From Pristiophorus japonicus (lineage: Eukaryota), in NCBI RefSeq assembly GCF_044704955.1, contig NC_091982.1, positions 26,908,001 through 26,972,000 of the forward strand: a stretch of DNA of 64,000 nucleotides, written 5' to 3'. The notes below the pieces were generated by a model. It had not been told where the DNA came from. It was given only the letters and a program-made list of their open reading frames with translations, and made no database searches. This document shows, piece after piece, positions 2,322 through 52,001 of this stretch; the stretch's first letter is position 1; every line of letters begins with the position of its first letter. A program made the translations under genes and the position numbers.

Positions 2322-3376
2322 TCAACATTTGTGCAACTGTTTTACATTAGTGCCATTTCCATTAAAACATTGCATTTGTTTTGCATGAGCTATTGGATTC
2401 GAACTACCAACACTCTTCAGTAACCTGCTTTGCTTATGAGCTATCTCTGGAACAGCAAAGGACTCCAATTTCTTTGTACCATTTTCCAAGTAGGAATTGT
2501 TACACCCACAGCAGATACAGTCTAGACAAGCCCTACGATTTGCATAACAAGGGCACCTTTGCCCCCGGCATGTGAGAACACTGGGAGCGCATGCTGCACG
2601 GCCACATTTACACCCAGGTTTCCCTCTTGGCTTTCTGCACACAGATTTCAGTGAACTGGCACATTCTTGAATGCCTAACCTCTTTACAGTTCTGTATTTA
2701 GCATTGTAACTTTTCACCATATTCTTCAACTTCTCAGTGACACTGTGTCTATTAACAGTAGGTTTCTTTAAGTTAAGTGAACTTTTGTCGGATGGCAGTA
2801 TGTATGATGTAGGAATCTGCTTAGTGGACACTTGAATTGTACTTTGATCCTCAGTATCTTCCACATTACAGCCATCATGATTTGTCTGTGACATGCTTTG
2901 TTTGCAAATCTTTCTTGTAACGATACTAATAGCTTTCTTCCTGTCTTTTATATTGGCATCAACAATGTCAGTTGGTTGATTTGAGACAATAGATTTTTGC
3001 ACCACCTGTACTTGTACCACCTGGAGTGGAGTCAATTTACTTATTATTTTCATAGCTTTTTTTGTGCAACACAATATATTGGACTCCATGCCATCCTGCG
3101 CCAACATCATGCCCTCTTCTAACAAAATATTCAGGTTAACTGGTAAGGTGCTGTTTTCTGACATATTTTCCATTATAGCACAGCTAGCTATATAATCACA
3201 AAGTTTTTTATAACATGTTAGAAGAATACGAAGTTGCTCATTTTCCACAAACATTCCATGGTCTTTGCACCAGCTGCAGGAAGGCTTCATTTGCATTTTC
3301 CGCCCTGTACACTTTTTACATACAAAATGTTGGCAGACTGAATTTTTTGGACCAACTGGATTTTTCAGTAGGTTAC
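2322..3376 (-). CDS. MSL2: MSL2-like E3 ubiquitin ligase, coding exon 2 (rest of RING finger, linker, CXC domain, stop)
   Basis: Acceptor TTTGATTTAG at 3377-3378, phase 1, matching exon 1. Reads (G)NLLKNPVGPKNSVCQHFVCKKCTGRKMQMKPSCSWCKD (MSL2-type RING) and CKCGRAACAPSVLTCRGQRCPCYANRRACLDCICCGCNNSY (MSL2 CXC), then KKLESFAVPE. Open for 1055 nt to TGA. The symbol denotes the family; probably a paralog, not the ortholog. Confidence 0.93.
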
Positions 3377-3855
3377 CTAAATCAAAGAAACAAGTCTTCA
3401 AATATGGATACAAATATATTTTAAAGCAATTTTAACATGACTGACAAAACAAAAGCTATGTGTTACACAAAATTGGTTACTCTGAGGCAGTCATTAATAA
3501 GGCAAGTCAGAAATTTAACTGACTGTAGTACAATTCAGAACATTATATACAGATCAACAGTGAGGCAAAAATAGCATGCAGTTTTAGTTAACCCATCACA
3601 AAATAAGGGATTACGAGGAATAAACTTGAGGATCATCTATACAACAATAATCAAGTACACATTCAGAAAAGGAAGATCTCGACTGACCAGACTCCTCGAT
3701 TGTTACCCAAGTGAACTGCATTAAGCCGTACCGTGTGGTAAACTGCAACTTCCCAAAGACTTTTGATGAAGTTCCACATGAATGTCCATTAAACTCAAAG
3801 CTTTAGGGATTTAGCAAAAACCCTGTGAATGGATAAGAAACTGGCTGAAAGATAG

Positions 3856-4123
3856 TGTAAAGTCCTGTCCCTACAGTACAGACTCACACGAGGCACATGC
3901 TGAAGTCAAGGTCACTCAGGAACTGCACCTTTATTTCACAGCTCTCGAATGCCACACTTGCCTGAGACCTGCCTTTATATACCTGTGTGGAACAGGTATG
4001 CAGTGTCTCCTGCAAGTGCATCCCTGGTGGTAAGGTATGTTTGTGGTTACAGGTCATATCTAGTTACAGTCATGTATAGCATGGTAAGATACAGTTATGT
4101 ACAGTAGTGTGAGATACATGACA
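3856..4123 (-). mobile_element. Solo LTR
   Basis: TG...CA termini, perfect 5-bp TSD GATAG (3851-3855 and 4124-4128), TATA-like box and AATAAA on the minus strand; interrupts a CR1 remnant. Confidence 0.8.
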
Positions 4124-4400
4124 GATAGGAAATTAATATTGGCTGGAGAAGTTATATCACGGCAGGTAGGTGGGCTGATAGGGGAGAAATACTGAGAGAG
4201 GTAACTCAAAACTCAGTGCTGTTTCTGTTAACAACCTGGATTCAGTAACTCATTGCAAAGTAGGCAAACTAGCAGATGATACCAGCTAGAGGGACAGTGA
4301 AATTAGATGCAACAGTTAAAAAATTACAAAATGAGTTGGAAGAAATATGTTAAGTGGGCATAATACTGATCGATGAAATTTAATGCAACCAAGTGTGAGG

Positions 4401-4835
4401 TGCTCCGTTGGGTTGGCCACATCGTCTGCATGACCGACACAAGATTCCCCAAGCACACGCTCTACTCGGAGCTCCGACACGGCAAACGAGTCCCAGGCGG
4501 ACAGAGGAAACGTTTCAAGGACACCCTCAAAGCCTCCTTGATAAAGTGCAACATCCCCACGGACACCTGGGAATCCCTGGCCCAAGACCGCCCAAAGTAG
4601 AGGAAGAGCATCCGGGAGGGTGCTGAGCACCTAGAGTCTTGTCGCCAAGAGCATACAGAAATCAAGTGCAAGACAGTGGAAGGAGCGTGTGACAAACTAG
4701 GCTCCCCACTCACTATTTGTCCCACCTGTGACAGAGACTGTAATTCCCGCATTGGACTGTACAGTCACCTGAGAACTCACTTTTAGAGTGGAAGCAAGTC
4801 TTCCTCGATTTTGAGGGACTGCCTATGATGATGCT
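4401..4835 (+). mobile_element. RTE-clade LINE 3' fragment
   Basis: LRWVGHIVCMTDTRFPKHTLYSELRHGKRVPGGQRKRFKDTLKASL; (GAT)n tail; similar to 13630-14080. Confidence 0.85.
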
Positions 4836-7495
4836 ACATATAGGAAGGAAAAATAGATGACATGCATACGGCATGAATGGTATTGAAACAGCCATGGACA
4901 ACGTGGAAAGAGACCCAGCAGTCTTAGTAGTTTCATCGCTAAACATGTCCAACAAATGCAATTAACAAAGCTTATAGAATGCTGAACTATAGTAGCATAT
5001 AACTCAAGAGGTAAAGATCAAACTGCATTGTGCTCTGGTCAGACCACATCTTAAATGCTGCTTCCAGGTCTGGTTGAAATGCAAGAGGCAGTGCAGAGAA
5101 AGGTCAACAAGACGATGCCCAGCACCAATGTCTGAGTTACAAGGAAAGACTAGATAGACGTTGGCTATCGATACAGGTAGAAAAGTTATCCAGCAATATT
5201 ACTTTAATTTAAACTGGAGATGTAGAACTAGGGGACACAGGTTCAGAATAGTAAAGGGTAATTTTAGAATCAATATCAGGAAATTTCTCTTTGCACAGGG
5301 AACAATTGAAGTGTGGAATAAACTTCCAGATAAGAGTCGTGGAGGCAAAAACCTTGCAATCATTTAAAAAACAATTGGATGCTGAAATGAGAGGAACATT
5401 TGGAACTTTCTGGATGGCTGAATTAAAAGGAGTCAAATGGCCTTCCTCATCTACAATTATCTTGTGAAGCAGGTTATGGATGCATTAGAAAGAATTCAGA
5501 GAAGGACTAGGGTGACTCCCGCCCTCAGGGTAGTAAGTTATGAAAATTTCAAATAAATAAACTTACTTTTGCAGGAGCGAGGGGGGGGGGGGGGTGGGGA
5601 AGACAGATACAGATCTTCAAAATATCAAGTATATGAAGTTGAAGTAAATAAGCTATTTAACTTTTGACACAGCATAGGGCAATGTAAAATTGAGCAAGAG
5701 TACAAACACTTATTACCCCACAGGACAGTAGATCTGTGAACAAACTCACATAGAAAGTAATTTATTTGGGGTCAATTGTTACTTTATTTTACTTTTTTTT
5801 AAAAAAAGGAACTGCATCAGTACAGTATCTGGATTATGTTGTGTGTTTACTTTTTCTTGGGTTTCAGACCACTCAAGTTGGAGCTTTCTTTCCCCATGTC
5901 TTCACTTGCCTAATATCTAGGCAGTGCGTAATGGACCCAAGGACTGAACAGAAAATTCTCAGTGCATTTTGGCCTCTGGTTATATGACGTCCCCTCACAC
6001 GATCTGCAAATTCAACTTTTGAATGAGATGAGGCCCCATTCTGTCTACTTACATGAATGTAAAGATCCCTTAGCATGATTTAAAGAGCAAGGATGTTTTC
6101 CCAGTATCCTGGCCAACATTTCTCAATATACACCAGCAAAACAAATGAACTGGCAATTTATTATCACTGTGCAAGAGGCCTTCTGCACAAATTAGTCGGT
6201 GCATCCATATAAGTGACTACAGTTCAAAAGAAATTCACTGCCTATAAAGCATGTTGGGACATCCTGAGGACGTGCTTATATAAATGCTTATCTTTATTAT
6301 GGAAGGTGGTAGAATAAACACTTCACTGGACTGTGGCTTAGGTTATAACGTGTCAGACAGATTCATTAACCAGTCAGAGGATGAGCAACTAGTGTAAATT
6401 TACAGCAGTTAGTTACACGTTTGGCAACCCTCCGTAGAGGACAGAAAAATAAGTCACGTCTGCTGCACTAAACAGTAGTGTAAACGGGACCAAACACAAG
6501 GTTCTTGAATAGTAAGCTTTCTATGGTGGTTTGTTGCCAATTGTCCAGAGACTCCCTGTGGACCACCCAATTTGTACAAGATATACTTTTTAAAAAAATG
6601 TCAAGAAACAAAATTTAAATATCTCCAACTCAAGAGCTTCCAAACGTACATAAAAATAAAATACACAAGATATTTGCATTTTAATTAAATGGCTTGATCT
6701 CACCCTTACCCATCTGTCCAAACATAGCATTTTTATTTTGGGGTTATTGTGTCAAACCACGAGTGACCTTGGTTTTTAAAATTTAAAAAAAATGTATACT
6801 TGGGATGTGGGTGACACTTGCAAGCCTACATTTATTGTTGAAAAGATGATAGCAGTCCTTCTCCTTGAACTACTGCCATCCTTGCATCAATGGTGTCCCA
6901 CAATGTTAGGTGGGGAATCCCAGAATCTTGATCCAATAATGAAGCAGCAATACATGTTCAAATCATGATGGTATGAAACTTGGGAGGTGAAGTTGTCTCC
7001 ATGATGTTGCTGCTCTCATCCTGCTTGGTGGTAGAGGTCACATGATTGGGAGGTGCTTTCAAAGTAAATCTGTCAAGTTTTCTGCAGTGCATCCTGTAGA
7101 TAATACATACTACAGTAGTACTTCATACAGTTTAGTGATGGGTTCAGTGGCAGAGGTGCCAATCAAGCAGGCTGTTTTGTCGTGGATGGTGTTGAGCTTC
7201 TGGAATGCTGTTACGACTATACCCATCAAGGCAAGTGAGTATTCCAAAACACTTGCGTCTTGTAGATGGTGGAGGAGTCCAGAGGCCAGCCTCTTCCTGT
7301 AGGTACTCAGCCTCTGTCCTCTTGTATAGCCATGGGTATTAATGTTGGTGATCCAGTATGCTTCTGGTTACTAGGAGGTTGATAGTGAGGGACTCTGCGA
7401 CGATGATGCTATTGAAGATTAGGGAAAGTGATTGGGCCTTTTCTTGGCACATATAGGACATGGACATTACCTACCACTTACGAGCCCAGGTGTGG

Positions 7496-9179
7496 GGCTG
7501 GAATTTTCTTTACCTGGGCGAGTCGGGTGCGGCCGGTCGGCATGGCGGGTCGCGACCCCGTTCTTGCTTCCATCCCGCTACAGAAATCAACTTTGCGCTA
7601 ATGGGGTCTATTAAGCCCGCCCTGCGCATTACCCGGCCCTATTCAATGGTGCGATCCGATGACATCAACGGTGTGTTTTCAGCCAGGATATTTAAAGGAG
7701 CCATGGCCACAATGCATTTGAAGGTTCATCTAGGAGTGTACAGTCACTGCACTGGAGGCCATGGTTGCTCCAAACACTTGGAAACATGACTTCACAGAGG
7801 CAGAGGGCTGCACCCAGGTTCTCCGATGACTCCCGCTATATGCTTGTGAAGGGAGTCAGAGCACACAGTGAGGTCCTCTTCCTTTCTAATGGGCTGAAGA
7901 GACTTCCCCTGGAGATAAAAAGAGCCTGGCTCCAAATTGCAAAGAGGTGAACAGCAGGCATATGTTCAGGAGAACCTGGGTGCAGTGCCGGAAACATTTC
8001 AATGATCCCATTAGATCAGGAAATGAGTAGAGCCACACTCAACTTCATCCTACTGTGCCTGTTCACACCCCCATCATTCTTGTCTTTCAAACCCTACTCC
8101 TGCACATCTTTAATCACACCTATATACCTTGCATGTCCACCCATCCCTCTCTATCTACATTATCACATCCCCATCTTACTAACCACACCTCACACTCACC
8201 CTAATGCAATCATAGCAACTAACACACAGGGAGGTCACTTGGCATTGCCACCTCACTCCATTATAGTCCCCCTCTAAAGATATAACATATCCATTCCTTA
8301 CACTCATTCCATCACTCTCACTCAACCTTTTCTTCTTTCCCTCCTTGCAGGAAGAGAGAGCTCACAATAAGAGGGAGAGGACTGGAGGTGGTCCTCCATC
8401 ATTTGCCACCCTCACAACAGCAGAGTATCAGGAGTGGCTGAGCAGCTGGAGGTGGGAGACGGAGGGGGACATTTCAGTAACCTGGTGACAGAATTACATC
8501 TCATACAGCTACATGGCATACATCAGTCACTCATATGGGAACTGATGTAGTAATCAGCCTCTGAATGGTCATCATGTGCATAATGGTATCTGTACTCATT
8601 CTTCATATGGCTTATCTAACTCATCTCTTTACTCTCCCACAGGTCCATTAGGAGTCCCCACCACTGTCCAGGAGGAAGGCGACTCCTCAGAGGAGCCTCC
8701 AGGCTCTGAGGGTGCTGCGTCATCAGACATGGATGGCAACTTTGCTGCAAACATTTGTAGCCTGTAGAAAGCTCAATTTGTGCTGGGAATACAGTCAGCA
8801 AGTTTTTGCTTGAGGAAAGTGATCAACTGTATGAGCTTCTACAGTACATTTCATGCTGTCATCTAATCAGCTGGAGCAATGGTCACTCAACTCCCGCCTC
8901 AGGCTGACAGATGTGGTTCACAAGCTGTGTGAATTCCGTGGGCAATCAGGGAAATTTGAAAGGTAGGCTGAAAAAAGCACTTAAGGGTCTGACAAGGTGA
9001 TAATGATTTGAATTAGGTCGCCCGCCTCTGCCGTTCGAGTCACTGCTGCACTGGCAAACACGCCCGAGGGAAAGGCGTGTGGGGGCAGGATGACGGCGGA
9101 TTCCTGACCCGCTCCAACTTATTTCAAATTTCCCACCAACCTGCCTCCACACCCACACGGACCCTAGAAAATTCCGGCC
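7496..9179 (+). mobile_element. PIF/Harbinger-type DNA transposon derivative carrying a decayed Myb/SANT-like ORF
   Basis: TIRs GGCTGGAATTTTCT / AGAAAATTCCGGCC, 3-bp TSD TGG; peptide RAAPRFSDD...LVKGV...AWLQIAKR*...RTWVQCRKHFND, followed by exon-like segments. Confidence 0.78.
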
Positions 9180-9575
9180 TGGATGTTGTCCAGATCCTGC
9201 TGTAGACTTCATTGTCAGAGGAGTTGTGAAAATCAGCAGAGCCCCACTCTTGACCTCATGATGAAGGAAAGATTATTGATGAAGCAGCTGCAGATAAATA
9301 GGGAAGGACAATGCCCTCAGGAGCTCTAACAGTGATATCCTGGGGTTGCAATAGATTGGCCTCCAAGAACCACAACCATATTGTGTGTCAGTTATGATTG
9401 CAGCCATCACATGGTTTCCCCTTGACCTCAGTTTTGCTATTGCTCTTTAGTGCCATACTCAGTCAAATGTCTCGATGTTGAGTGCAGTTACTTCTTCCTT
9501 GCCTCTTGCATCCGTGTCTGGAGCTAAGCAGTTCTGGCAGAATCTGAATGGCGCATGGGCGAGTAGGTGCAACCT

Positions 9576-10275
9576 GAAACATAGAAAGTAGGTACAGGAA
9601 TGGGCCATTTGGCCCTTTGAGCCTGCACCACCATTCAATATGATCATGGCTGACCATGCAACTTCATTCCTGCTTTCTCTCCATACCCCCTGACCCCTTT
9701 AGCCGTAAGGGCCACATCTAAATCCCTTTTGAATATATCTTACGAACTGGCCTCAACAACTTTCTGTGGTAGAGAATTCCACAGGTTCACAATTCTGAGT
9801 GAAGAAGTTTCTCCTCATCTCGGTCCTAAGTGTTTTACCCCTTATCCTTAGGCTGTGACCCCTGGTTCTGGACTTCCCCAACATCGAGAACATTCTTCCT
9901 GCATCTAACCTGTCCAATCCCATCAGAATTTTATATGTTTCTATGAGATTCCCTCTCATTCTTCTAAACTCCAGTGAATATAAGCCTAGTCGATCCAGTC
10001 TTTCTTCATATGTCAGTCTTGCCATTCCAGGAATCAGTCTGGTGAACCTTCGCTGCACTCCCTCAATAGCAAGAATGTCCTTCCTCAGATTAGGAGACCA
10101 AAACTACACACAATACTCAAGGTGTGGTCTCACCAAGGCCCTGTACAGCTGCAGTAAGGCCTCCCTGCTCCTATACTCAAATCCCCTCACTATGAAGGCC
10201 AACATGTCATTTGCTTTCTTTACCACCTGCTGTACCAGCATGCCTACCTTCAATGACTGATGTACCATGACACCC
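9576..10275 (-). mobile_element. CR1 LINE 3' fragment
   Basis: ORF 9753..10058 QRRFTRLIPGM...RLGLYSLEFRRMRG; near-identical to 58400-59090. Confidence 0.9.
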
Positions 10276-11084
10276 TGCTGACAATTGTGGAAAGACTGAC
10301 ACAGGGTGGTAATTGGCCAGATTTAATTTATTCTGCTTCTTACACATAGGACATACCTGGACAATTTTCTACACTGTTGAGTCAATACCAATGCCACAGC
10401 TACATTGAAATAGCTTGGCTAGTGGTGGTTAGTTCTGGTAACCAGAAAAAGATAACCATTTCAATTAAGCTCATGATTTATTCCCTTTTTTCTCTTACAC
10501 TTAATTTTCTAGCCTATACATTATTGTAGCCCTGTCTCCCATGCCAGCACCAAACAAAAATTTAATTTATATATTCAGTTTAGTACAATGAGAAGTAGGG
10601 GAGTATTCCTTTTTCCAAAATGTAACCCTGAGACCACTGTTCAACCTCAACAAGAAAATTAACACTTTGCATTATGTGAGGGGGCATCTTGGTCAGATGT
10701 TCTTCCTCGTCCCTTTTGAATACAAGGGCCTTATTCTGAACTATACTTTGACTGGAAAAGTCAGTAGAGAGATCAAAGATGTCCTGGCATATAAAGTTAG
10801 CTGGGCCAGAAATAGATAGGTTGGGGAAAATATTATGTAACACAAGTCAGAATAGCTATGGGGGCTATAATCATGACATCAATATAACCTCACTGCTACG
10901 TAGGGAAAAACATCAGCTGCTTGCTCTCACTGTCCAGTGTTCCAAGCTAGAAACTACATATGTAGACCAGAGGATTGGACTCAATTGTAATGCACCACAT
11001 GGCAAAATCACCAGCTACCACTTGCTATCCACTGGCCTCAGATTGAAAAGGCGACATCTGCAGATGGCTAGGCACATTCAAAGA

Positions 11085-11560
11085 ATAACAACTTGCATTT
11101 ATATAGCGCCTTTAACGTAGTAAAACATCGCAAGGCACTTCACAGGAGTATTATAAAAAAATTGACACCAAGCTCCATAAGGAGAGAATAGGGCAGGTGG
11201 TCAAAGGGGTAGGTTTTTAAGGAGTGTTTTAAAGGAGGAAAGCAAGGCGGAGAGGTTTAGGCAGGGAATTCCAGAGCTTAGGGCCTAGGCAATAGAAGGC
11301 ACGGCCACCAATGGTTGAGTGATTATAATCAGGGATGTTCAAGAGGGCAGAATTAGAGGAGTGCAGATATCTCGGGTAGTTGTGGGGCTGGAGGAGATTA
11401 CAGAGATAGGGAAGGGCGAGGCCATGAAGGGATTTGAAAACAAGGATGATAATCTTGAAATCGAGGCGTTGCTTAACCGGCAGCCAATGCAGGTCAGCGA
11501 GCACAGGGGTGATGGGTGAGCGGGACTTGGTGCGAGTTAGGACATGGGCAGCCGTTGGCT
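11085..11560 (-). mobile_element. L2 LINE 3' fragment
   Basis: LADLHWLPVKQRLDFKI...LHGLALPYL...GGRAF...GPKLWNSLP, a typical L2 C-terminus. Confidence 0.85.
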
Positions 11561-11674
11561 TTGTCCCTTCTTGGGACCTCTGACTTTGACCCTGGTCTCC
11601 ATACTATTGTCTCCAACCTATTCCCTACTACCATTCAAAGAATAAGATGTGAAGAGAGCCTTTAAAACTATAGA

Positions 11675-14300
11675 AATAATTTGCATTCATGTAGCACTTT
11701 TCATGGCCTCTGGGTGTTTCAAAGCGCTTTAAAGCCAATGTAGTCGCTGTTGTAACGGAGGGAAATATAGCAGCCAATATGTGTACAGCAAGGTCCCAGA
11801 AACAGCATTGAGGTAAATGACAAGGTATGTTGGAAGGTTAAGGGTTAATAATTGAACTGACCTGTATAACTATAATTGGTCATAGAACAGATAATTCATG
11901 AGGTGTTATCTGTGACATGTACCTTTGAAGTAGGCAAGCCAATGTGTACAAAGGAGCATGGTTTTCAAGAGTTAGTTGAAGAGTTCGAAAGATAGAGAAG
12001 CCACTCTCTTGTACGGTATAGATTGATCACCTATGCTGTATATGAATAAAGTCTGTTCCATATACTCAAGTGTCTTGTGCTTACATGAAGCGTGTTGTTG
12101 TGAACCATAAAATGAAGATAGTGATGTTGGTTGAGGGTTAAATATTGGTCGAATGACCGAGCGTCTCTTTGCAGGTGCTAATTATGGAGGCCTTGAGGGC
12201 AGACCAGGCACTGTGGACACTCTGCGTCTCTGGGAGTCATCAGATTGGTAGCGAGACTCTGTCTTTGACGTGACTGTCCTCGACTCCATCTCACAGCATG
12301 CCACCCGCCACCATCTCAGCCCAACCCAGCATGAGGTCGAAAAGACCATCCGACAACTGAAGAACAAGGCATCAGCAGATGGAATCCCCGCTGAAGCACT
12401 GAAACATGGCGGAGAAGCACTACTACCTCAGAATCATGACATCATCTCATATCTGGAAGGAGATCATGCCAAGAGATCTCAAGAGACACTGTAATCATGA
12501 CCATCGTCAAGAAAGGCGACAAGTCCAACTGTGATAACTACAGAGGGATCTCCCTGCGGTCGATCACCGGGAAAGTCATCGCAAGAAATCTCTTGAATCA
12601 TTTTCTTCCTGTGGCTGAAGAACTCCTCCCAGAGTCACAATGGGGTTTCCTCACTAAGGGGCACAATGTTCATGATCTTCACCGTGTGGCAGATACAAGA
12701 GAAATGCAGGGAACAGCACCAACCCTTGTGCATGGCCTTCTTTGACCTCACAAAAGCCTTCGACATTGTCAACCGTAAGGGATTATGAAACGTCCTCCTC
12801 AGATTTGGCTGCCCTCAAAAGTTTGGCACCATCCTCCACCATGATCCTGACCAACGGATCCATCACAGACCCATTCCATGTTCAGACCGGGGTCAAGTAA
12901 AGCTGTGTCATCGCACCAACGCTCTTCATGATCTTCCTTGCTGCAATGCTCCATCTCACCTTCAGCAAGCTCCCCACTGGAGTGGAGCTAAATTACAGGA
13001 CAAATGGGAATCTGTTCAACCTCCGCCGCCTCCAGGCCAGATGCAGGGTCGTCCCAACCTCAGTCATCGAATTACAGTACCTAGACGACGCTTGCGTCTG
13101 CGCACACTCGGGGGCCTAACTCCAAGCCATCGTCAACCCCTTAACCAAGGCGTACAAGAGCATGGGCCTTACACTAAACATCCATAAGACAAAGGACCTC
13201 TACCAACCTGCCCCCACCATACAGTACTGCCCCCCCCGATTATCAAAATCCACGATGAGGCCTTGGACAACCTGGACCATTTTCCATACCTCGGGAGCCT
13301 ACTGTCAACAAAGGCAGACATCGACGACGAGGTCCAACACCGCCTTCAGTGTGCCAGTGCAGCCTTCAGTCGCCTGAGGAAGAGAGTGTTTGAAGACCAG
13401 GACCTGAAACCCGGCACCAATCTCATGGTCTACAGAGCAGTAGTGATACCCACCCTCCTATATGGGTCAGAGACATGGACTATGTGCAGCAGGCACCTCA
13501 AAACACTGCAGAAGTACCACCAACGTTGCTTCTGCAAGATCCTGCAAATCCATTGGCAGGATAGGTGCACCTACGTCAGTGTTCTCGCTCAGGCCAACAT
13601 CCCCAGCATCGAAGCATTACCCATGCTCAATCAGCTCCGCTGGACGGGCTACCTTGTTCACATGCCCGATACGAGACCCCCAAAACAAACGCTCTACTCA
13701 GAGCTCCGACACGGCAAGCGAGCCCCCGGTGGGCAGAGGAAACACTTCTAGGACACCCTCAAAGCCTCCTTGAAAAATGCAACATCCCCATCGACACCTG
13801 GGAATGCCTGGCCCGAGACTGCCCAAAGTGGAGGAAAAGCATCCGGGAAGGAGCTGAACACCTCGAGTCTCTTTGCTGAGAGCAAGCTGAAGCCAAGCGT
13901 AGACAGCGGAAGGAGCGCGCGGCAACCCAGGCACCCCATCCACCTGGTCCTCCAACCACTGTCTGCCCCACCTGTGACAGAGACTGTAGGTCCCGTATTG
14001 GACTCTTCAGTCACCCGAGAACTCATTTTTAGTGTGGTAGCAAGTCATCCTCGACTCCAAGGGACTGCCCAAGAAGAAAAAATATTGGCCAGGGCACCAG
14101 TACTCCTCTGAATCCATAGATCTTTTATATCTGCCTGAGAGGGCAGACAGGGTCTCAATTTAACGTTACATCCAAAAGATAGCACCTCCCCCAGTACTGC
14201 ACTGGAGCGTCAGCCTGGATTGTGTCTCTAGAGTGGGACTTAAACCCACAACCTTCATACTCGGCGGTGAGTGCTACCACTGAGCCAAGGCCGACACCTT
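11675..14300 (-). mobile_element. tRNA-derived SINE interrupted by an LTR-like insert (~11828-12120) and an RTE LINE
   Basis: Head at ~14230-14300 has A-box TGGCTCAGTGG and B-box-like GGTTTAAGTCC on the minus strand; the body matches the uninterrupted copy at 19300-19690. Confidence 0.65.
12151..14080 (+). mobile_element. RTE-clade LINE, 5'-truncated, RT region with stops and frameshifts
   Basis: Peptides KKGDKSNCDNYRGISL, ELQYLDDA, FPYLGSLLS, LLYGSETWT; 10-bp near-perfect TSD aatattggtc (12141) / aatattggcc (14081). Confidence 0.9.
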
Positions 14301-41345: not shown

Positions 41346-41548
41346 CTTCAGGTAATTTTCGTTTCCCAGTTGCTGGTTTTGTTTTCTTGCTTCTTACAGA
41401 GGAGCCTCTGCTGCTAATTCCACTGACAACAGACATTGTGTCATCATCACCAGTCAATAAGGAGTTTCTATATGATATTAACGGAAGCCACACATCTTCC
41501 CTATGCAATATCATTTGCTCAGTCATAAACTTCTCGAGGTAAACATAG
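41346..41548 (-). CDS. STAG2: STAG2 exon ([31 protein letters not shown]...KRKLPE)
   Basis: 203 nt, phase 2-1, AG at 41550-41549, donor G|GTAATA; lies within track ORF 41329..41577. Confidence 0.93.
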
Positions 41549-41705
41549 CTGAAATTAGAAAATAAAATATTGTTCAATAGTTATACAAACAGCGTCAAAC
41601 TGTATTGCAAAATAGCAATATTACAGCAGTTGAAGCAGAACAGCACACAATTTTAGAGTTTGTTATCCTTCATCTACACACAAAGATGCCAAATACTGTA
41701 CTTAC

Positions 41706-41834
41706 AGTGTTCTCTTGTCTTGTCTGAGCAGTTTAGAAGAGAATTCACTCAGGATATCCAGGAAGGGTAAATTCAGAGCGGGATATCCTTCTCCATTTAC
41801 ATTGGGTTCCTTGAAGGCAAAATCAATGCCATCT
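41706..41834 (-). CDS. STAG2: STAG2 exon ([42 protein letters not shown])
   Basis: 129 nt, phase 2-2, TTTGCAG acceptor, GTAAGT donor. Confidence 0.95.
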
Positions 41835-42649
41835 CTGCAAAGTCATTGTCAAACAAATTAGAACTAGAAAATAACCAATGAAATTCTCAAAATCTCACAT
41901 ACTTAAAATATAATTAGGATACTGAATTTGACATCATGGGCTAACCACGTGTGTGTGCTTAGAAGAGACTTACTTTACACACTTCAGGTAACATGCTTAA
42001 ACTAGGCTGTAGCAGTTCATTGCAAAAACAAACATTACGGACAGCAGAAATTGGCTAATCATCTTGAACTAACTTGAGATTAAAATGGTGTTCACCAGAT
42101 TCATTCCCTCCAGTTGACAGATAAATCTTGTACTTGCCTGCACAATTTGATCCAGCCCTTTGAAATGCAGAGGCATAGTTGTTACCTATGCCTCTCAGCA
42201 GCCAATTGGATTTGGCCTTCAAGTATTGAAGGGCACAGGCTAAAAATTAACAAGTCTCAAGAAAGAGTATGCATTAAACTCCATTACTGGCCATATGCAA
42301 TTGATTCACAGTAGAGGTATTTAAGAATCTGTGCTCATTGACATCTTCAAAAAGGAGCTGAATAAGTACTATCTGATTTGGAATATGATCACAGATTATA
42401 GAGAAGAGACACAGACTGAGATGATGAAGCACTCCACAGGACATGATGGTACCAGTGCTGCTGGGAAAATGACTCTAGCGAGCAGCAGGCTAGGGTAATT
42501 GTGGAAATATAGGAAAGGATAAATAAGCTATAGCTTTATTTGATTATTTTTGAGAATGTGTATTTATGAAAATGTTTCCCCTTGGGCGATTAAGTGGGTT
42601 ATGTAAAGTCCATGAAAGAATACATTGCACATAGCTTGAGGAAGGAGTG

Positions 42650-43040
42650 GACTTGACTCTGAGCTGAGCTTCCGACCCAATATTCGCTGCATCACTAAGA
42701 CCACCTACTTCCACCTCCATAATGTCGTTCGTCTCTGCTGCTGCTGCCCCAGCTCATTTGCTGCTGAAACCCTCATCCATGCCTTTGTTATCTCCAGCCT
42801 ACGAAAATGCTTTCCTGGGCGGCCAGCCACCTTATCCAAAATTCTGCTGCCTGTATCCTAACTCGCACCTAGTCCTGTTCACCCATCACCCCTGTGCTTG
42901 CTGACCTAATTGGCTCTCAGACGAGCAATAATATCTCTATGTGGCTCGATATTGAATTTCTGTCCAATAACGCACATGTGAAGCACCATGGGATGTTTTT
43001 AATACCTTAAAGGCACTATAAAAATGCAAGTCGTTATTGA
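42650..43040 (+). mobile_element. L2 LINE 3' fragment
   Basis: AAETLIHAF- and PITPVLADL-like remnants and an L2-type 3' tail. Confidence 0.65.
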
Positions 43041-43197
43041 TGGACGGAATGGCTTTTTCATGTTGCTTTTTAAAATCTCAACGGAGTCATTATTTCCAAT
43101 GCATTTTTGACTCTCTGCGCATGCATGTCCGACTGGTATTGCACATTTGATCCAGTCATGCATGCACAGTACCAAACGATACAGCGGCTGCGGCCTC

Positions 43198-43700
43198 TGG
43201 GGAGAGGGGGGAATTGAGGGGGGTGTGTGGGGAGAGGGAGAGGGAATCGAAGGGGTGCGTGGGGAGAGGGAGAGGGAATCGAAGGGGTGGGGGAAGAAGT
43301 AGAGAGAATTGAAAGGGGGTGGGGGAAAGAGGGAATCGAAAGGGGATGGGGGGGGGGGGGGAGAAGAGAGGGAATCTAAAGTGGGTGGGGGTGGGAAGAA
43401 GAGAGGGAATCGAAAGGGGGTGGGGGAGGGGGGGGGGTGAAGAGAGGGAATCGAAAGGGGGTGGGGGAGGGGGGCAAAGAGAGGGAATCGAAAGGGGGTG
43501 GGGGAGGGGGGCAAAGAGAGGGAATCGAAAGGGGGTGGGGGGGGGAAAGAGAGGAGAATGGATGAGAAAGATGAGATCGAAGGGGGAGGAGGCAGGAAAG
43601 GGGGGGGAAATCGGAGGGATGGGAGAGGGGATCAAAGGAGGAGAGGGGTTCGGAGGGGAAACAGGAGGTCAGGAGCTCGGGGGGAGAAGAAAAGTTCAGG
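43198..43700. repeat. Polypurine G-rich minisatellite (core gagggaatcgaaagggg)
   Basis: About 10 imperfect copies separated by G runs. Confidence 0.85.
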
Positions 43701-44601
43701 AACTCGGAGAGTGGTAGAGCATAGAGGGAACAGTGGCGATGGGGGAAGAACGTACTCCAGGTCTAAATGGGAAGAATGAGAGTAAGAACGTGAACGTCAC
43801 ATTCTTTGCCCCCCTGTTAAACATGGATCACGTTCTTCCAACCCCACCCGCTTTACACCCACACCGCGTTCTCCCTCTCCTCCCCCTAGACCTGGCTGAT
43901 TTCTCGGAAAACCTGGCGTGTGTGCGGCAGGTGACGTCATTGGGCTAAATGAAATCCGAAAGTCACGACACTGTCACTATTCACTTCATATCCAATTAAC
44001 CGGCTAACAATCCGTAACACACACACACACATACATACACAAGGGGGGAGGGTGGGAAGGAAATCAGGAACCTTGGTGGGGAGGGGAGATGGTCAGCAAT
44101 GGGCAGGGAGAGAGAATCAGGAACTCGGGGAGGAGTGGTGGGAGAGGTCAGGAACGCGGGTTGGGGGGGGAGAAAGAAGCTCAGGAACTTGGGCAGGGGG
44201 CGAAGGCCAGGAACCAGGTGTGGCGGGGGTAGAAGGTCAGGGATTTGTTGGGGAGGGAAACGGTAAGGAACTTAGGCAGTGGAGAAGGTCAGGACCCCAG
44301 TTTGCGGGGGGGGGGGGGGGCGGGAGATCAGGAACTTGTAAGGAGGGAAAAGGTCAAATGCTTTTTTGGGTGGCAGTCAGAATGAATGGCTAAAGTTACA
44401 CTTTGCAAAATACTTGATTACTCAGGCAGGCAGGATCTAATTACACATTCCAGACAAGCTGTTTGATGTGTCTTGTCATTCAAGGGGACCAATCAGAACT
44501 TTTGTATTGCAAATACACATGACCTTATCTTAATCCCCCTTACCTCAGAAACCATGTCCTCAAGAAAAAAAAAATTTAAATACAAGATGACAAGGACTTA
44601 C

Positions 44602-44750
44602 TTGTGCAGCATTGCTACAGCTTCTCTGGTTTTTAGCTGATCTAAGCCAAATGTTAGTGAGAAACGTCGAGCAAGTTCTTTAACTCCACTAAAACCAGGA
44701 GTTGTTCGATCAAAACCAAGTCCAAGGTCCTGTTCCAATTCATTAAACAA
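44602..44750 (-). CDS. STAG2: STAG2 exon ([50 protein letters not shown])
   Basis: 149 nt, phase 0-2, canonical sites; conserved SA-family motif [15 protein letters not shown]. Confidence 0.95.
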
Positions 44751-45295
44751 CTGTGAGAAATCAAATAATTATAATGTAAATGGAGTAGTAATTATCCAAG
44801 AACACTTACAAAAAAAACGCTGACAAAATATGTAATGTATTGATGATCATTAACAAATTTAAACATTTCACTTCTGTTTGCCCTCTCTTATCCTTTACTT
44901 GGCCCTCGCATGCAAAAAATAATCAATAAACTTTGATATTTTTGACAGTCCCAATATCAAAACCAAATACCAATGGGTTTTAGAAAGAGCTCTTTGGTTA
45001 ATACTCTGAAAAATAACACTATTCCAAATATGTAAACATAATGCAGGAAAAGGAAGCTGCAAATATAACATGTAAATGCACATCATTTATATTTGTACAA
45101 TGGTCCTTATTTAAACTGCATCACAATTCTTCATTTAACATAAAATTTGAGACATTATGGAACATTATCACAAAATCATAACATAGAAATGGGTGAATAC
45201 CAGTAATATGCTGAGAAAATAATACCCCCTAAGTTCCATCCTTTAGGATTATCTACTTTATCAATTTACTGATACATTCTTCTTCCAATGATTTA

Positions 45296-45406
<111 letters not shown>

Positions 45407-45805
45407 CTAAAGTATAAATAATAATGGTTTTAGTATGCATTATAGATAAATTCATTATTCAATAATTCTGATAACTGAAATTCTGAGAACTGGGTCTAAA
45501 ATGCACAAATCCTAGCATTGCAATAGTTAAGTATTGTTTGGGACTTTTGAATATAGAACACTTCTATTTTAGTAAACATTTATTATTCCCCAGAGAACCA
45601 AGGACAAAGCAGTAGTGGAATATCCTACTGTTCAAGTTTACAAGTCACCCATTACAGGAAGCTAGGTTGAAACAGGCATATACAGAATTGGAAAAGATTT
45701 TGTGATTCATCTGGCCAGTTCCAATTTAAAAAAAAAGCATGCTATATCACTTTTGCCAAAACAAGTACCTGGTTCCCTCTTGAATTTTCTTACAATCTTG
45801 ATTTA

Positions 45806-46093
<288 letters not shown>

Positions 46094-47032
46094 TTAATAG
46101 TGAAGAAGCTGTGAGCCACCTAGAGTTGTCAACCCTTTCAGATTTTCCGGAGTCTCCCGGAATGGGCACTGCTGCTAGCAATCCAGGAGAAAAGTAGAGT
46201 TTGCACTTCACATTTCCAGCTTGCTGTGGTGTACTTTTCACACCTGCTCGCGGAACTTCTCATATGACAGCTATTGGCATAAAACCACGAGCAAAGATAC
46301 TCAAGTCCAAGGAACTCAACTGTTAGAAGGTAAATATAGTAACATTTGCAGACTGTGGGCAAGCATTATGTGATAAGACATCACACGGTCAAACCTCCAG
46401 GAATACCTCTAACCAGAGTTGGTAAACTTAGTGCTATCCATTATCCAGAAAAGTCAGATCAAGCTGTCTCTCGGATCTCAGTGAAGCATAATGGCCAGCA
46501 TTGCTACGACTGCCAATTCCTCACATTTTTTTTTTTTTAAACCCATTTTCTGTTCACCCAACTGATGGTTCTCCTTTTCTTTGTTTCACTTCAAACTTGT
46601 GTTCTGTCACATTAATTGAAATATGCACCACCAATTAAGCTTTTAAGCTGTGCGGCCACGCAGCACTCTGCAGGTCCCAAAAGAAAATTAGAGGAAACAT
46701 TGCGTAACTGTTCAAGCATATCTGGTGTTGTCCGATGTTAACCGAGACGGACCAGTGTACCCTATGACACCTCTGAAAATGCATACACAACCCAAATAGT
46801 TTCCCCCCCACCCTCCCAAAAAGAGACAGAACAACATTAGAGAGATGCTAAGGTTTCAATAGCACAAGGTGACTGTATCAAGAAATTCTACTTGGGATTC
46901 AAATTCATTCTGTATCATACTTCTCAGTTTTAAAAATCATTCATAATTTACAGCTATGGGGAAAAGGGCTTTAAGTAACAGACTGTACTAGATTGGTACA
47001 AATAAGTATGTGTGAAAAATAACATCCCTCAC

Positions 47033-47207
47033 CTGTACTGTGGCCGTCTTCATCCTGGTCAATAAATACATGGTCTAAGATGAAGCTGAGCAACTCTGAC
47101 TGTAGAGACGAATCTGGAGTGTAAACCAGAGGTTCCAGTACTTCACGTCCACCTGACATAATCTGGTGGCTAAAAATCATCAGAATATCACACAAGATAG
47201 TGAAAGC
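47033..47207 (-). CDS. STAG2: STAG2 exon ([58 protein letters not shown])
   Basis: 175 nt, phase 0-1, donor G|GTGAG. Confidence 0.95.
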
Positions 47208-47702
47208 CTACAAAACAAAACAGAAATAATTACTGAAAGTTACTGAGTCTATTTTGAACACAAAGTCATTGCACTAATTAAATGCATCTTATAGAAAAAC
47301 TAGTGCGCTTATAAGAGAGGTAAAGTTTAGGACGACTTTAAGTACTTCCCCATATGCATTATTTAAAAAGTGTGCCTCCCTACCTTGCAGGAAGTTAGAC
47401 TTATAGGATGTAAAGCTACCATTCATTTCTTTCTCAGAGGCCTGCTATTTTAGTTCTATATAATCTAAATTCATTCCAATGACATAGGTTACAAATGTAA
47501 CTTCGACATTAGTCCTTCAGATCAGCCAAGATCCCAATGTGAGACTGTCAAGCTAAGAAAAGTTACTTGCTAGTTATTGCTGCGTACTTGGATAGTGCAA
47601 ACAATTTGGTTGTTTCAGTCACCATCTAGGCTAGCCAAAGCACCAACTTAAACATTACTGACTCAAGTCACTCCAGGATGAATGTAGACTGCCTCTATAC
47701 CT

Positions 47703-49222
47703 CATCATAGGCAGTCCCTTGGAATCAAGGAAGACTTGTTTCCACTCCCAAAATGAGTTATTTGATGGCTGAACAGTCCAATACGAGCCACAGACCCTGT
47801 CACAGGTGGGACAGACATTTGTCGAGGGAAGGGGTCAGTGGGGCTGGTTTGCCGCGCGCGCCTTCCGCTGCCTGTGCTCGGCCTCTTCACGTTCTTTGCG
47901 TTGAGACTCAAAGAGCTCAACGCCTTCCCGGATGCACTTTCTCCACCTCGGGCCGTCTTCAGCCAGGGTCTCCCAGGTGTCAGTGGTGATGTTGCACTTT
48001 ATCAGGGAGGCTTTGAGGGTGTCCTTATAACGTTTCCGCTATCCTTCTTTGGTTCGTTTACCACGAAGGAGCACCGCATAAAGCATTTGCTTCGAGAGTC
48101 TCGTATCTGGCATGCGAACTATGTGGCCTGCCCAGCAAAGCTGATCGAGTGTGGTCAGTGCTTCAATACTGGTGATGTTAGCCTGATCGAGGACACTGAT
48201 ATTGGTGTGCCTGTCCTCCCAGCGGATTTGCAGGATCTTGCGGAGACATCGTTGGTGATATATCTCCAGCGACTTGAGGTGCCTTCTATACATCATCCAT
48301 GCCTCGGATCCATACAGGAGGGCGGGTATTACTACAGCCCTGTAGACCATGAGCTTGGTGATAGATTTGAGGGCCTGGTCTTCAAACACTCTTTTCCTCA
48401 GACGGCCGAAGACTGCACTGGCACACTGGAGGTGATGTTGAATCTCCGCAACAATGTCTGCCTTTGTTGATAAGACGCTCCCGAGATATGGGAAATGGTC
48501 CACGTTGTCGAGGGCCGCGCCGTGAATCTTGATGATTGGAAGGCAGTGCTGTGCGGCAGTGACGTGCGGCAGTGACAGGCTGGTGGAGGCCTTTTGTCTT
48601 ACGGATGTTAAGCATAAGGCCCATGTTTTCATATGCCTCAGGTGAATACATTGACTATATCCTGGAGTTCAGCCTCTGAATGTACACAGATGCAGGCGTC
48701 GTCCGCATACTGCAGCTCAACGACAGAGGTTGGGGTGATCTTGGACCTAGCCTGGAGGTGGCGTAGGTTAAACAGCTTCCCACTGGTTCTGTAGTTTAGT
48801 TCCACTCCAGCGGGGAGCTTGTTGATTGTGAGGTGGAGCACGGCAGCGAGGAAAATTGAGAAAAGGGTTGGAGCAATTACGCTGTCCTGTTTGACCCCGG
48901 TCCAGACGTGAATTGGGTCTGTAATGGATCCGTTGGTAAAGATCGCGGCCTGCACGTCATCATGAAGCAGGCGAAGGATGTTGACAAACCTTTGGCAGCA
49001 TCTGAAGAGGAGGACGCTCCATAAACCCTCACGGTTGACCGTGTAAAAGGCCTTTGTAAGATCGAAAGAGACCATGTATAAGGGCTGGCGCTGCTCCCTG
49101 CATTTTTCCTGCAGCTGTCGCGCTGCAAAGATCATGTCTGTTCTGCCCCATAGGGGACAAAATCCGCATTGTGATTCCGGGAGGAGCTCCTCGGCCACAG
49201 GGAGAAGTCGATTGAGTAGACT
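47703..49222 (-). mobile_element. RTE-clade LINE RT fragment
   Basis: ORFs 48638..49198 (LPESQCGF...FDLTKAF...LQYADDA) and 48039..48632. Confidence 0.92.
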
Positions 49223-50669
49223 GCCTCGATACCTAACAGCATTGTAATGGCTCCTGGTACAATTGGAGATCCAAAATGGCAGGATTCCACAGGAAGAAAA
49301 TCAACTTACTAAAGCAATCTCATACCATAGTTTCCCATCTCTGGCATCATCTTGGTGAAGCTACACTGTACCTGCACTTGGCTTTAATGCCCTTTCTGTA
49401 ATGGGGCACTCTGTGGTTTAACCATTGTATTTATAAATTTATCATTGCTTCTTTTGACTTGTACTCTGTGCTCCATTTATAAATCCCAAAGTGCTCTTGG
49501 TCTTTATTTATTTATCTACTTGCACTCACACTATTAGGAAATTACTCATTTGAATCCTTAAGTTTCTTTGTTCATCCACTCTACAGTATCTTTCTATTGA
49601 GTGTATGCTGCCATTCCTTGTTTTTCCTTCCAAAATGTATTAACTAACACTTCGCATCAAATTTAATCTGAAACCTATCTTCCCATTCAGCTAACCAATG
49701 TCCTCCTAACATCTTTTACAATTCTTCTCGCTGTTTGCCAAACCCCCTACTTTTATGTTATCAATAAATTCTAACATGGTGCTCCCTCTGCTCAAGTTAC
49801 CTATATATAATCAAGAACAATCGTGGACCGAACACTGACCCCTGGTGTATAACACTTCCAATCTCTTTCCAATCCAAGCAACACTTTTACCCCTAACCCC
49901 TCTGTTTTCTCTCTGTTAACCAGTCAAAATGTAGTGCGTGTTGGTGGGAAAGTTTCTATGTACATTTGAAATTATTGACTTTACTTTATAAAAAAAAACA
50001 TTTTAAGTATAATAGAAATTTGCATGCAAGTGTCTGACACACATTTTTAATATACTTAATCTCCCATGGTATTGCGCACTGTGAATCCCCCTCCATGACT
50101 TTTGTCTCTCTCTCTCTCTCTCTCTCACGCACACATTCTTTCCCCTGTCCTTCTTGTCTCTCTCCCGCGTGATTTCTCTCTCTTACCCGGAGTTCTCTGA
50201 GCCCCCCTCTCTACTGATCTTTTTATTTCACAAAGAAAGATACTAGTTGAGGTGGGCTTCAAGCTGGGGTTCAGACAGAGCTGTAAAGCCATGGCATGTG
50301 CGGGTCAGGGTGCAGATTGGAATAAAAGTGGGCCTTGGACCATGTAGCAGTACTCTGGATTTTAGAAAAATTAAATGACACAACCAGGAAGAGGAGTGGT
50401 GTGAGTTGGAGGTTGAGCAGCAATGTCACAAAGGGACAAGTCAGTTCAAGTGGGAGATAAAGAGGCGTCACTTAGTTTTGGGAGACCTGCACTGCAAGGG
50501 AAGTAATTACAAGTATTGAGGTAATTAAGAGTACGGTGGTGTTACCCATGCCATTAGACCTGGCATGAGAAAATTGGCACACCAAGCATGACCAAATCAT
50601 GACATAGGAAATAAGTGTGACAAACAAGCAGTCTGTGCACACAAAATTATAAAAATGTATATTTTATTG

Positions 50670-51000
50670 ATGGCACTGTGGATAAAGGTACAGACCAGAA
50701 GGTCCCAGGTTCATTCCCACTCTGTGCTGGTGCAAACCAGCAGGAGTTGCATTATTTTCATTTGCCTCAGTTACTCCAGGCTAGGGAGCGAAAAAAAAAG
50801 TACATCAACCGGAATTCCTGTTCCCGATAGCTAGCCAATGACTCAGAGTGGAAATTGCGCATAGTTGGACACTGGGTGAAAACAGGATAAAGCTCAACTG
50901 TGATACCCCACGAGCAAATATCTAGCCAACATTCAAAGCTTCGGCTCACATAGGAAGCATGGCCATTGGGTAAAGTACTGGAATGCAGTGAAGAAAAAGA
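50670..51000 (+). mobile_element. LF-SINE-like tRNA-derived SINE
   Basis: B-box-like ggtcccaggttcattccc followed by a conserved body (ggctcacat...atggccattggg); the family name is from recall. Confidence 0.5.
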
Positions 51001-51908
51001 TAATACCGAGGGAAAAATACTTAGTACTGAAACTACTTAGAATTTCCTGATATTTTAATGTAAATAAACTTTACAAAGCCATCTGTAAAATACAACCAAT
51101 ATCTGCTGTAAGAAATAGCATCAAAAACAGCATTTCAAAATAACTCTAGCGAGGTTGCTAGTATTTTATTTTACTATTGCTTCTAAAAAGGAAGAAAGTT
51201 ATATACTAAAAGAGAAAGGAGCAAACTCAGTTATTAATTTCTCTATCATTGGCAGGCTGTAATAGTCAAAATTTACATGTCAATATGTAATTATAAATTT
51301 AATTTGAGGAATATAATGTGAATGTAAATTACTAGTTTAACAGCTATGGATTTCTAAATTCCAGTGGACTTTTGTTTTCAGAAACCAGTGATAGATAACT
51401 AGAACCACTCAAAAAAACAAACAGGCCATACATTTTTAAGTGTGACTGAAGTGATCACGTGAGCTTAGAAAATTAAAGTTCATGTAGGAGGTAAACTGTG
51501 CTTTTGAAATCTCTCAAATGGTGTGTGTTAGGGGCTAACAGAAACAAATTTGATTACTGAAGAGGTTAAATGCATTGGCAGGTGTTTTAAGTTAAATCAT
51601 TTTGCTCCATTTAAGAATTTCCTATTTTTTCATCTTTAATATGAGTGAGGTCACATGTATTTCAATGAGAACAAAAATTGCATCTTAAAAAATGTTACCA
51701 ATATTATTTTCTTAGAAATGATCTGAAGTAGTTAAGCGAATGTTAAATTGGGAGGGACAATCGATTGAATGCAACATCTCTCATGTGATCTGTTACTGAT
51801 TTGTCACTGTAGAAAGCAGTGTTGACAATCACAATTTTTGCAACTGGACAGTGATATATATGTGAAAATATGTGGCTACTTTCATGCTCAAGACGTGATT
51901 TCCATTAC

Positions 51909-52001
51909 CTGTTCTTTAACAGCTGTATTAACATTCGTCAGGTAGTGCTGGCAGATCTGGCAGAAAGCTCGCATTTGTTTTCGTAACATTATTAGCTTAT
52001 C
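51909..52001 (-). CDS. STAG2: STAG2 exon ([31 protein letters not shown]); most 5' exon visible
   Basis: 93 nt, phase 0-0, TTCTTTCAG acceptor, CAG|GTAA donor. Upstream exons lie in the gap or beyond the window. Confidence 0.94.

What the first reader, a model, noticed from the sequence alone, without database searches (positions are those of the whole stretch)
2322..52001. Intact divergent MSL2 paralog directly downstream of STAG2: probable retained whole-genome-duplication ohnolog
Seen: a complete 403-aa RING+CXC ORF with intact splice sites and a CpG promoter, on the same strand and ~5 kb 3' of a gene with the STAG2-specific C-terminus. Known (recalled): in human, MSL2 lies downstream of STAG1 on the same strand with PCCB between, and I recall no MSL2-like gene beside STAG2. 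Inference: STAG1-MSL2 and STAG2-MSL2L are sister paralogon segments, and the second MSL2 survived in cartilaginous fish but was lost in mammals. That would imply a possible alternative MSL (H4K16ac/H2B ubiquitin) complex.
Basis: partly seen in the sequence, partly recalled or inferred. Interest (0 to 1): 0.85.

Follow-up and report, generated by a model that had tools for sequence, protein, structure and literature searches.

The report
Second ancient MSL2 gene in sharks
This shark carries an intact, spliced second copy of the chromatin gene MSL2 right beside STAG2, and other sharks, rays and a chimaera carry it too; it is likely a leftover of the first vertebrate genome doubling that bony vertebrates likely lost, and it is predicted to act as a swap-in subunit of the MSL histone-modifying complex.

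Summary
Confirmed. A two-exon, 403-aa RING+CXC gene lies 6.3 kb downstream of the STAG2 stop, and a spliced contig joins its exons. Canonical MSL2 sits elsewhere, after STAG1-PCCB. Orthologues are named in 17 chondrichthyans, chimaera included, and share STAG2's contig in 10 of 10 species checked. None was listed from a bony vertebrate, so the loss looks osteichthyan-wide, not only mammalian. Marlétaz 2024 source data place the unnamed bamboo-shark copy on segment CLGN-beta1 beside STAG2 and canonical MSL2 on alpha2, which points to the first genome doubling. My tree agrees, but an AU test does not reject a shark-only duplication (p=0.137). Zinc ligands and the DNA-reading arginine are kept; the linker, CXC loop and tail differ; one MSL1 and one MSL3 locus were found. 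An alternative MSL complex is plausible but untested. Retained shark ohnologues are a known class; my searches found no paper on this one.

The parts
18556..18712 (-). MSL2 paralogue (MSL2L) coding exon 1: residues 1-52, two predicted helices and the first RING Cys pair; phase-1 intron at the same codon as in canonical MSL2
2322..3376 (-). MSL2L coding exon 2: rest of the RING and helix 3, paralogue-specific linker, CXC domain, short tail
3377..18555 (-). 15.2-kb intron, GT...AG, with several LINE-like ORF fragments; skipped in the X13 contig
18300..19100 (.). CpG island over exon 1 and upstream; likely promoter
3267..3376 (-). exon-2 part of the RING holding ligands C67, H69, C72, C75, C86, C89 (C49 and C52 are in exon 1)
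2493..2612 (-). CXC domain core (about residues 308-346): nine Cys and R326, equivalent to fly R543
1700..2321 (-). 3' UTR covered by the spliced X13 contig (it extends beyond the stretch laid); AATAAA at 1935 and 1492
3732..3789 (-). alternative first exon of annotated isoform X2 (P0001); overlaps a repeat; no join seen in X13
25051..52004 (-). STAG2 3' part: 12 coding exons (about residues 758-1261); the gene continues beyond the window

Best explanation
This is an intact, spliced second MSL2 gene beside STAG2 in sharks, rays and chimaera; it likely dates from the first vertebrate genome doubling, was likely lost in bony vertebrates, and is predicted to work as an alternative ubiquitin-ligase and DNA-binding subunit on the one MSL1 scaffold found. 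History (about 0.9): an ancestral STAG-MSL2 block was doubled at 1R. The alpha2 descendant kept STAG1-PCCB-MSL2; the beta1 descendant kept XIAP-STAG2-MSL2L-SH2D1A-TENM. No MSL2 was found beside the third STAG locus on C10. The two loci share contig C6 here only through a later fusion. Function (about 0.6, inferred): the helix-RING module would dock on the MSL1 coiled coil and bind an E2, and the CXC would read DNA through R326. The unrelated, conserved basic linker, the changed CXC loop and the missing canonical tail would change partners or target sites. With one MSL1 and one MSL3 locus found, MSL2 and MSL2L would compete for, or share, the two MSL2 seats of the MSL1 dimer.
For: Shown: the gene model and splice; exactly two MSL2 loci above cut-off in G000; STAG1-PCCB-MSL2 order at C6:169.3-169.44 Mb; XIAP 27.16, STAG2, MSL2L 26.91-26.93, SH2D1A 26.52 and TENM 25.3-25.9 Mb; two COL4 pairs on C6 and a third on C10. 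MSL2L and canonical MSL2 are on different contigs in 14 of 14 other species with both lengths listed, and MSL2L shares STAG2's contig in 10 of 10. The 51-row tree gives MSL2L 100/100 as sister to all gnathostome canonical copies, 95/84. Site patterns: 4 columns where MSL2L keeps the invertebrate state against shark and bony canonical, 0 columns uniting MSL2L with shark canonical. PMC10972751 source data, family OG_2404: Chipu0006312 is beta1, next to STAG2 Chipu0006313 (beta1); Chipu0010798 is alpha2; gar, frog and chicken have alpha2 only. All 8 RING and 9 CXC ligands are invariant in 50 of 50 aligned proteins. The modelled N-terminus matches MSL2 in 4B86/4B7Y with TM 0.86-0.87 and rmsd 2.2. 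One MSL1_dimer locus and one MSL3-like locus were found.
Against: The AU test does not reject a chondrichthyan-only duplication (dlnL 2.77, p 0.137), and canonical monophyly fell to 69/53 in the 31-row set. MSL2L has a long stem (0.51 against 0.12), so long-branch pull is possible. No cyclostome or amphioxus protein was identified for the tree. In the published table the lamprey and hagfish MSL2 and STAG genes lie on different chromosomes, so ancestral adjacency is inferred only from gnathostomes. The alpha/beta labels are by segment, not by gene tree. Absence in bony vertebrates rests on the best 120 of 332 hits, the best 150 of 459 and 3 species in the published table; no bony genome was scanned. 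Six chondrichthyans with canonical MSL2 on record (Stegostoma, Heptranchias, 2 Mobula, Hypanus, Hemitrygon) gave no MSL2L hit. Helix 1 and the helix 1-2 loop differ from the canonical and invertebrate pattern.
Confidence: 0.8

Rival explanations
1. A DNA-level duplication of canonical MSL2 in the chondrichthyan stem landed next to STAG2 and then diverged fast.
For: AU p=0.137; found only in chondrichthyans; long stem; both loci lie on one contig in this genome.
Against: It would have to land on the same side and strand of STAG1's own ohnologue by chance. No column unites MSL2L with shark canonical, against 4 for the older split. The linker has no similarity to shark canonical (best E 2.5), while the shark canonical exon 2 is 65% identical to coelacanth over its full length. 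The shared contig is explained by a fusion. The published segment is beta1.
Confidence: 0.08
2. The origin is as in the best explanation, but MSL2L has left the MSL complex and acts as a stand-alone or differently partnered DNA-binding E3 ligase.
For: Paralogue-fixed changes in helix 1 (for example E8, C16-A17, L19-L20) and loss of the D-P-x-D-P loop; a 55-residue charged insert in that loop in chimaera; an unrelated linker, with two motifs 72-76% conserved to chimaera; the canonical tail is absent.
Against: A6, Y10, R15, L35-P36, R39-Q40 and the helix-3 face (L96, I98, L99, C102, Y103, L106, Y109; canonical numbering) are kept. The fold matches the MSL1-bound form. R15 is the residue whose human variant is proposed to disturb MSL1 binding (PMC11267526 passages).
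Confidence: 0.3
3. It is a decaying, redundant copy under relaxed constraint, with no function of its own.
For: About 3.6-fold longer root-to-tip path than canonical (0.70 against 0.195); sawshark-chimaera core identity 70% against 96%; no hit in 4 of 4 myliobatiform rays with canonical on record.
Against: Open frames in 17 named species, all zinc ligands fixed, CXC 86% identical to chimaera against linker 54%; a spliced contig at depth 237.
Confidence: 0.05

Closest known systems
Vertebrate MSL2 (RING E3 ligase and CXC DNA-binding subunit of the MSL1/MSL2/MSL3/MOF complex; PDB 4B7Y, 4B86)
   Same: Same domain order, same two-exon structure and intron position, all zinc ligands, the R543-equivalent arginine and the N-terminal fold.
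   Different: 403 against 590 aa; 59% identity in the RING+CXC core; linker not alignable; CXC loop ACA-P against TQN-P and R to C in C-x-C-R-G-C; canonical C-terminal tail absent; faster evolution.
Ohnologues retained in chondrichthyans and lost in bony fishes (19 cases counted in PMC10115646; Pdx2, PMC2944030, is a related case also kept in coelacanth)
   Same: Beta-segment location, faster rate and osteichthyan loss fit the pattern described (passages).
   Different: The gene list was not in the supplement held, so I cannot say whether MSL2L is among the 19. Here the gene is a core chromatin-complex subunit whose partners were found once each.
Teleost msl2a/msl2b duplicates
   Same: Two MSL2 genes in one genome, one sometimes much diverged (Hoplias, P0157).
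   Different: Those nest inside the canonical clade and keep the canonical CXC; MSL2L does not.
STAG1/STAG2/STAG3/STAGL ohnologue quartet (Lamb 2021, PMC8040251)
   Same: Same paralogon; the quartet is listed with COL4A3/A5/A1 (supplement rows).
   Different: MSL2 is absent from the part of that supplement held (0 hits, file cut); the species sheets seen are all bony vertebrates.

Membership tests
MSL2 family | MSL2-type RING (PF16685) with eight zinc ligands | tested here: met
   91 bits against cut-off 31; C49, C52, C67, H69, C72, C75, C86, C89 invariant in 50 of 50
MSL2 family | CXC domain (PF16682) with nine Cys | tested here: met
   53.7 bits against cut-off 26.7; nine Cys invariant
MSL2 family | Minor-groove arginine equivalent to fly R543 | tested here: met
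   R326 aligns with 2LUA R543; R in 9 of 10 MSL2L rows, K in whale shark; role from PMC4248295 passages
MSL2 family | N-terminal helices plus RING in the MSL1-binding fold | tested here: met
   model pLDDT mostly 70-92 over residues 1-120; 4B86/4B7Y TM 0.86-0.87; likeness to the solved structure is expected from 55% identity
MSL2 family | Binds the MSL1 coiled coil | not tested
MSL2 family | E3 ligase activity (H2B K34) and support of MOF H4K16 acetylation | not testable with these tools
   needs biochemistry
Vertebrate WGD ohnologue (1R) | Lies on a chromosome segment paralogous to that of the canonical gene | tested here: met
   STAG and COL4 paralogues flank both loci; published labels beta1 and alpha2 of CLGN
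Vertebrate WGD ohnologue (1R) | Paralogous neighbour in the same order and strand, conserved across species | tested here: met
   STAG2 then MSL2L, and STAG1-PCCB then MSL2; same contig as STAG2 in 10 of 10 species, accessions within 5 numbers in 4 of them
Vertebrate WGD ohnologue (1R) | Gene tree places the split before the shark-bony fish divergence | tested here: inconclusive
   best trees do (95/84 and 69/53), but AU p=0.137
Vertebrate WGD ohnologue (1R) | Split precedes the cyclostome-gnathostome divergence; pre-duplication STAG-MSL2 linkage in amphioxus | not testable with these tools
   no cyclostome or amphioxus protein was identified among the named hits; both families carry the CLGN label, which gives no amphioxus positions
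Vertebrate WGD ohnologue (1R) | DNA-level duplicate, not a retrocopy | tested here: met
   intron at the same codon and phase in both genes, each with a CpG island

The most novel reading that the evidence does not exclude
Cartilaginous fishes run two MSL complexes, or mixed MSL2/MSL2L complexes on one MSL1 dimer, whose targeting subunits split about 527 million years ago and read different DNA or partners through a distinct CXC loop and basic linker. Hagfish MSL2, labelled 1R copy 1 in published data, would be the orthologue of this shark gene and not of human MSL2, so the two halves of the first vertebrate doubling of MSL2 survive reciprocally.
Probability: 0.3. Interest if true: 0.72.

Novelty: new member of a known kind. 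Interest (0 to 1): 0.5.

Why it matters
MSL2 is dosage-sensitive in humans (PMC11267526 passages), and outside teleost-type duplicates my searches listed one copy per bony vertebrate. A paralogue likely about 500 million years old, kept while one MSL1 and one MSL3 were found, is a natural subunit-swap experiment. It keeps the RING and CXC cores and replaces the linker and tail, so it can test which parts of vertebrate MSL2 set target choice. It also warns that 'MSL2-like' labels in shark and cyclostome annotations hide paralogy. The class (shark-retained ohnologues) is known, which caps the surprise.

Tried and rejected
Intrachromosomal duplication, suggested by both loci lying on C6: rejected, because C6 carries two COL4 pairs and the loci are on different contigs in 14 of 14 other species. 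Retrocopy: rejected, the intron is shared. Neighbour is STAG1 or STAG3: rejected. Diverged bony-fish proteins as MSL2L orthologues (P0157, P0128, P0118, P0122, P0125): all nest in the canonical clade; P0161 and P0196 were judged by motif or name only and left out of the tree. A third MSL2 or remnant: none above cut-off in G000, and none in 130 kb after the C10 STAG or 180 kb downstream of MSL2L (best E 0.23). dN/dS was not computed: no orthologous coding DNA, and one search showed 40 of 149 differences. The AlphaFold model is unreliable beyond residue 165 (pLDDT mostly under 50), so nothing is concluded on the linker or CXC fold. The ESM Atlas gave only MSL2 clusters. Literature searches listed no paper on this paralogue. 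Hallacli 2012 and Wu 2011 are not held, so interface and catalytic residues could not be read at source. Supplements: whale shark, 12 of 24 files searched with 0 hits; skate, list of retained ohnologues not in the held file; hagfish Source Data Fig. 3 too large to read. These unseen files may name or test the gene. Earlier scan findings: none.
Full report
Observation. The window is G000:C6:26,908,001-26,972,000. A minus-strand gene has a 157-nt exon at 18712-18556 and a 1055-nt exon at 3376-2322 with GT/AG ends, giving 403 aa. It carries the MSL2 RING and CXC above Pfam cut-offs and a CpG island at about 18300-19100. The protein equals P0346, a public Pristiophorus japonicus 'MSL2-like isoform X1'. 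Run X13 (kind not on record, 99% of sampled words) holds a 2567-nt contig that covers 1700-3377 and continues with the end of exon 1, while 3402-3549 has no cover. The splice is therefore seen in one run, which may be the source data set of the annotation. The upstream gene has 12 coding exons in the window and is STAG2: 74 against 33 bits and 72 against 61 bits for SA-2 over SA-1.

The other copy. G000 has two MSL2 loci by RING and by CXC; the 6 further CXC matches were below cut-off. The second encodes a 590-aa protein, 59-65% identical in exon 2 to bat and coelacanth MSL2. It lies at C6:169.31-169.32 Mb (-), followed by carboxyltransferase exons at 169.35-169.41 (+; read as PCCB from position, not separately typed) and a STAG1-like gene at 169.42-169.44 (-). 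Its intron falls at the same codon and phase, so MSL2L is not a retrocopy. Around the window the order is XIAP (27.16 Mb), STAG2, MSL2L, SH2D1A (26.52), a teneurin (25.3-25.9). From recall this is the human Xq25 order, with MSL2L as the extra gene.

Same contig. Both loci lie on C6, 142 Mb apart. C6 holds two COL4 pairs (41-42 Mb, alpha2/6-like; 256-257 Mb, alpha4-like) and C10 a third. In 14 of 14 other chondrichthyans with both contig lengths listed, the two MSL2 genes are on different contigs. C6 is thus best read as a fusion of two paralogous chromosomes.

Range. Orthologues (63-87% over exon 2 for the nine cluster representatives) are named in 17 species including Callorhinchus. Accessions are within five numbers in 4 of them (S. 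torazame scyTo_0001708/9, Amblyraja, Heterodontus, Cetorhinus); in five others the numbers are not adjacent and the whale-shark MSL2L accession was not retrieved. After these the score drops from 464 to 218 bits, onto canonical MSL2 (best 120 of 332). An MSL2L profile over 1.84 billion representatives gave one MSL2L cluster; every other listed protein with a vertebrate-type CXC had the canonical form (best 150 of 459). Six chondrichthyans with canonical MSL2 on record, including 4 myliobatiform rays, gave no MSL2L hit; this may be loss or missing annotation.

Age. On 187 RING+CXC columns and 51 chosen rows (10 MSL2L, 23 canonical, 18 invertebrate, out of several hundred held), MSL2L is 100/100 and sister to all gnathostome canonical copies (95/84). 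On 31 rows canonical support fell to 69/53, and the AU test did not reject MSL2L plus shark canonical (p 0.137). Column counts favour the older split 4 to 0, with 2 columns uniting MSL2L and bony fish. The linker has no similarity to shark canonical. The strongest dating is external. In the hagfish-genome source data (PMC10972751; supplement rows and text passages read), family OG_2404 has 7 rows. Bamboo shark has two: Chipu0006312 (chr15, 51.78 Mb, beta1) next to STAG2 Chipu0006313 (51.65 Mb, beta1), and Chipu0010798 (chr13, alpha2) near STAG1. Gar, frog and chicken have alpha2 only. Labels 1 versus 2 mark the first doubling, dated there to about 527 Ma. The labels are by segment, and the shark row has no gene name. 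Hagfish MSL2 is labelled 1 and lamprey nd; both lie on other chromosomes than the STAG genes listed. Lamb 2021 (PMC8040251, supplement rows) lists STAG1/2/3/L and COL4 as ohnologues of one paralogon and has no MSL2 row in the part held. The skate paper (PMC10115646, passages and supplement part 1) reports faster loss and evolution on beta segments and 19 ohnologues kept in chondrichthyans only; its list was not visible.

How it likely works. Shown: eight RING and nine CXC ligands invariant in 50 of 50 rows; R326 equivalent to fly R543, the one base-reading residue (PMC4248295 passages); residues 1-120 model as helix-helix-RING-helix and match MSL2 in 4B86/4B7Y. Sawshark-chimaera identity is 74% in the RING, 86% in the CXC, 54% in the linker and 72-76% in two linker motifs, against 96, 100 and 75% for canonical: constrained, but faster. 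Changed: the helix-1 surface and helix 1-2 loop, the CXC loop that mediates CXC-CXC contact in the fly structure, and the absent canonical tail. One MSL1_dimer locus and one MSL3-like locus were found (counts are lower bounds). MSL1 dimerises and binds the MSL2 N-terminus (PMC11658772 and PMC11267526 passages). Inferred: MSL2L would occupy the MSL2 seat, keep E3 and DNA-binding activity, and redirect the complex. Binding was not modelled or measured; I put this at about 0.6, against 0.3 for an MSL1-independent role.

Novelty. The protein is in public annotations as 'MSL2-like' and in one published table as an unnamed beta1 gene. Nine full-text searches (listings and abstract starts only) showed no paper on it, and some supplements were not visible. 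PMC7530604's single 'msl2' match is part of a DOI. From recall, 'MSL2L1' is an old alias of human MSL2, so the label MSL2L used here is only a working name. Verdict: a real, likely 1R-derived MSL2 paralogue of cartilaginous fishes, a new member of a known class, of moderate interest that would rise if a distinct complex is shown.

Noticed in passing
G000:C6 (COL4 pairs at 41-42 and 256-257 Mb; STAG2 26.9-27.1, STAG1 169.4 Mb): The contig looks like a fusion of two paralogous CLGN-derived chromosomes; in 14 of 14 other chondrichthyans the two MSL2 loci are on separate contigs.
   Followed up: partly
L005, L054, L048 (G000:C10:200.5-200.74 Mb): A third STAG gene followed on the same strand by an SH2D1-like exon mirrors STAG2-SH2D1A; likely the 'STAGL' (alpha1) copy of Lamb 2021 rather than STAG3. 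No MSL2 remnant in the 130 kb scanned. STAG3 itself was not found.
   Followed up: partly
window 3732-3789: Annotated isoform X2 starts in a repeat-derived exon and would lack both N-terminal helices and the first RING Cys pair; no join was seen in X13. Human MSL2 also has an N-terminally shortened variant.
   Followed up: partly
listings: No MSL2L hit for four myliobatiform rays, Stegostoma or Heptranchias although their canonical MSL2 is on record: possible secondary loss or annotation gap.
   Followed up: no
PMC10972751 supplement 6, OG_2404: Hagfish MSL2 is labelled 1R copy 1, the same side as the shark paralogue: possible hidden paralogy with human MSL2.
   Followed up: no
L049 and L050 (G000:C17:30.79 and 29.37 Mb): Two nearly identical MRG-domain exons 1.4 Mb apart on opposite strands (MORF4L1-like, from recall): a recent partial duplicate or an assembly repeat.
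   Followed up: no
P0010 residues about 27-85: Chimaera MSL2L has a 55-residue charged low-complexity insert between helices 1 and 2.
   Followed up: no
P0157 (Hoplias): A strongly diverged teleost msl2a-like copy with a disturbed RING spacing, nested in the canonical clade.
   Followed up: partly
window 4300-16200, 34100-35400 and 47700-60300: Many LINE-like reverse-transcriptase and endonuclease fragments (identified from recalled motifs), including a long, broken element at about 56000-59000.
   Followed up: no
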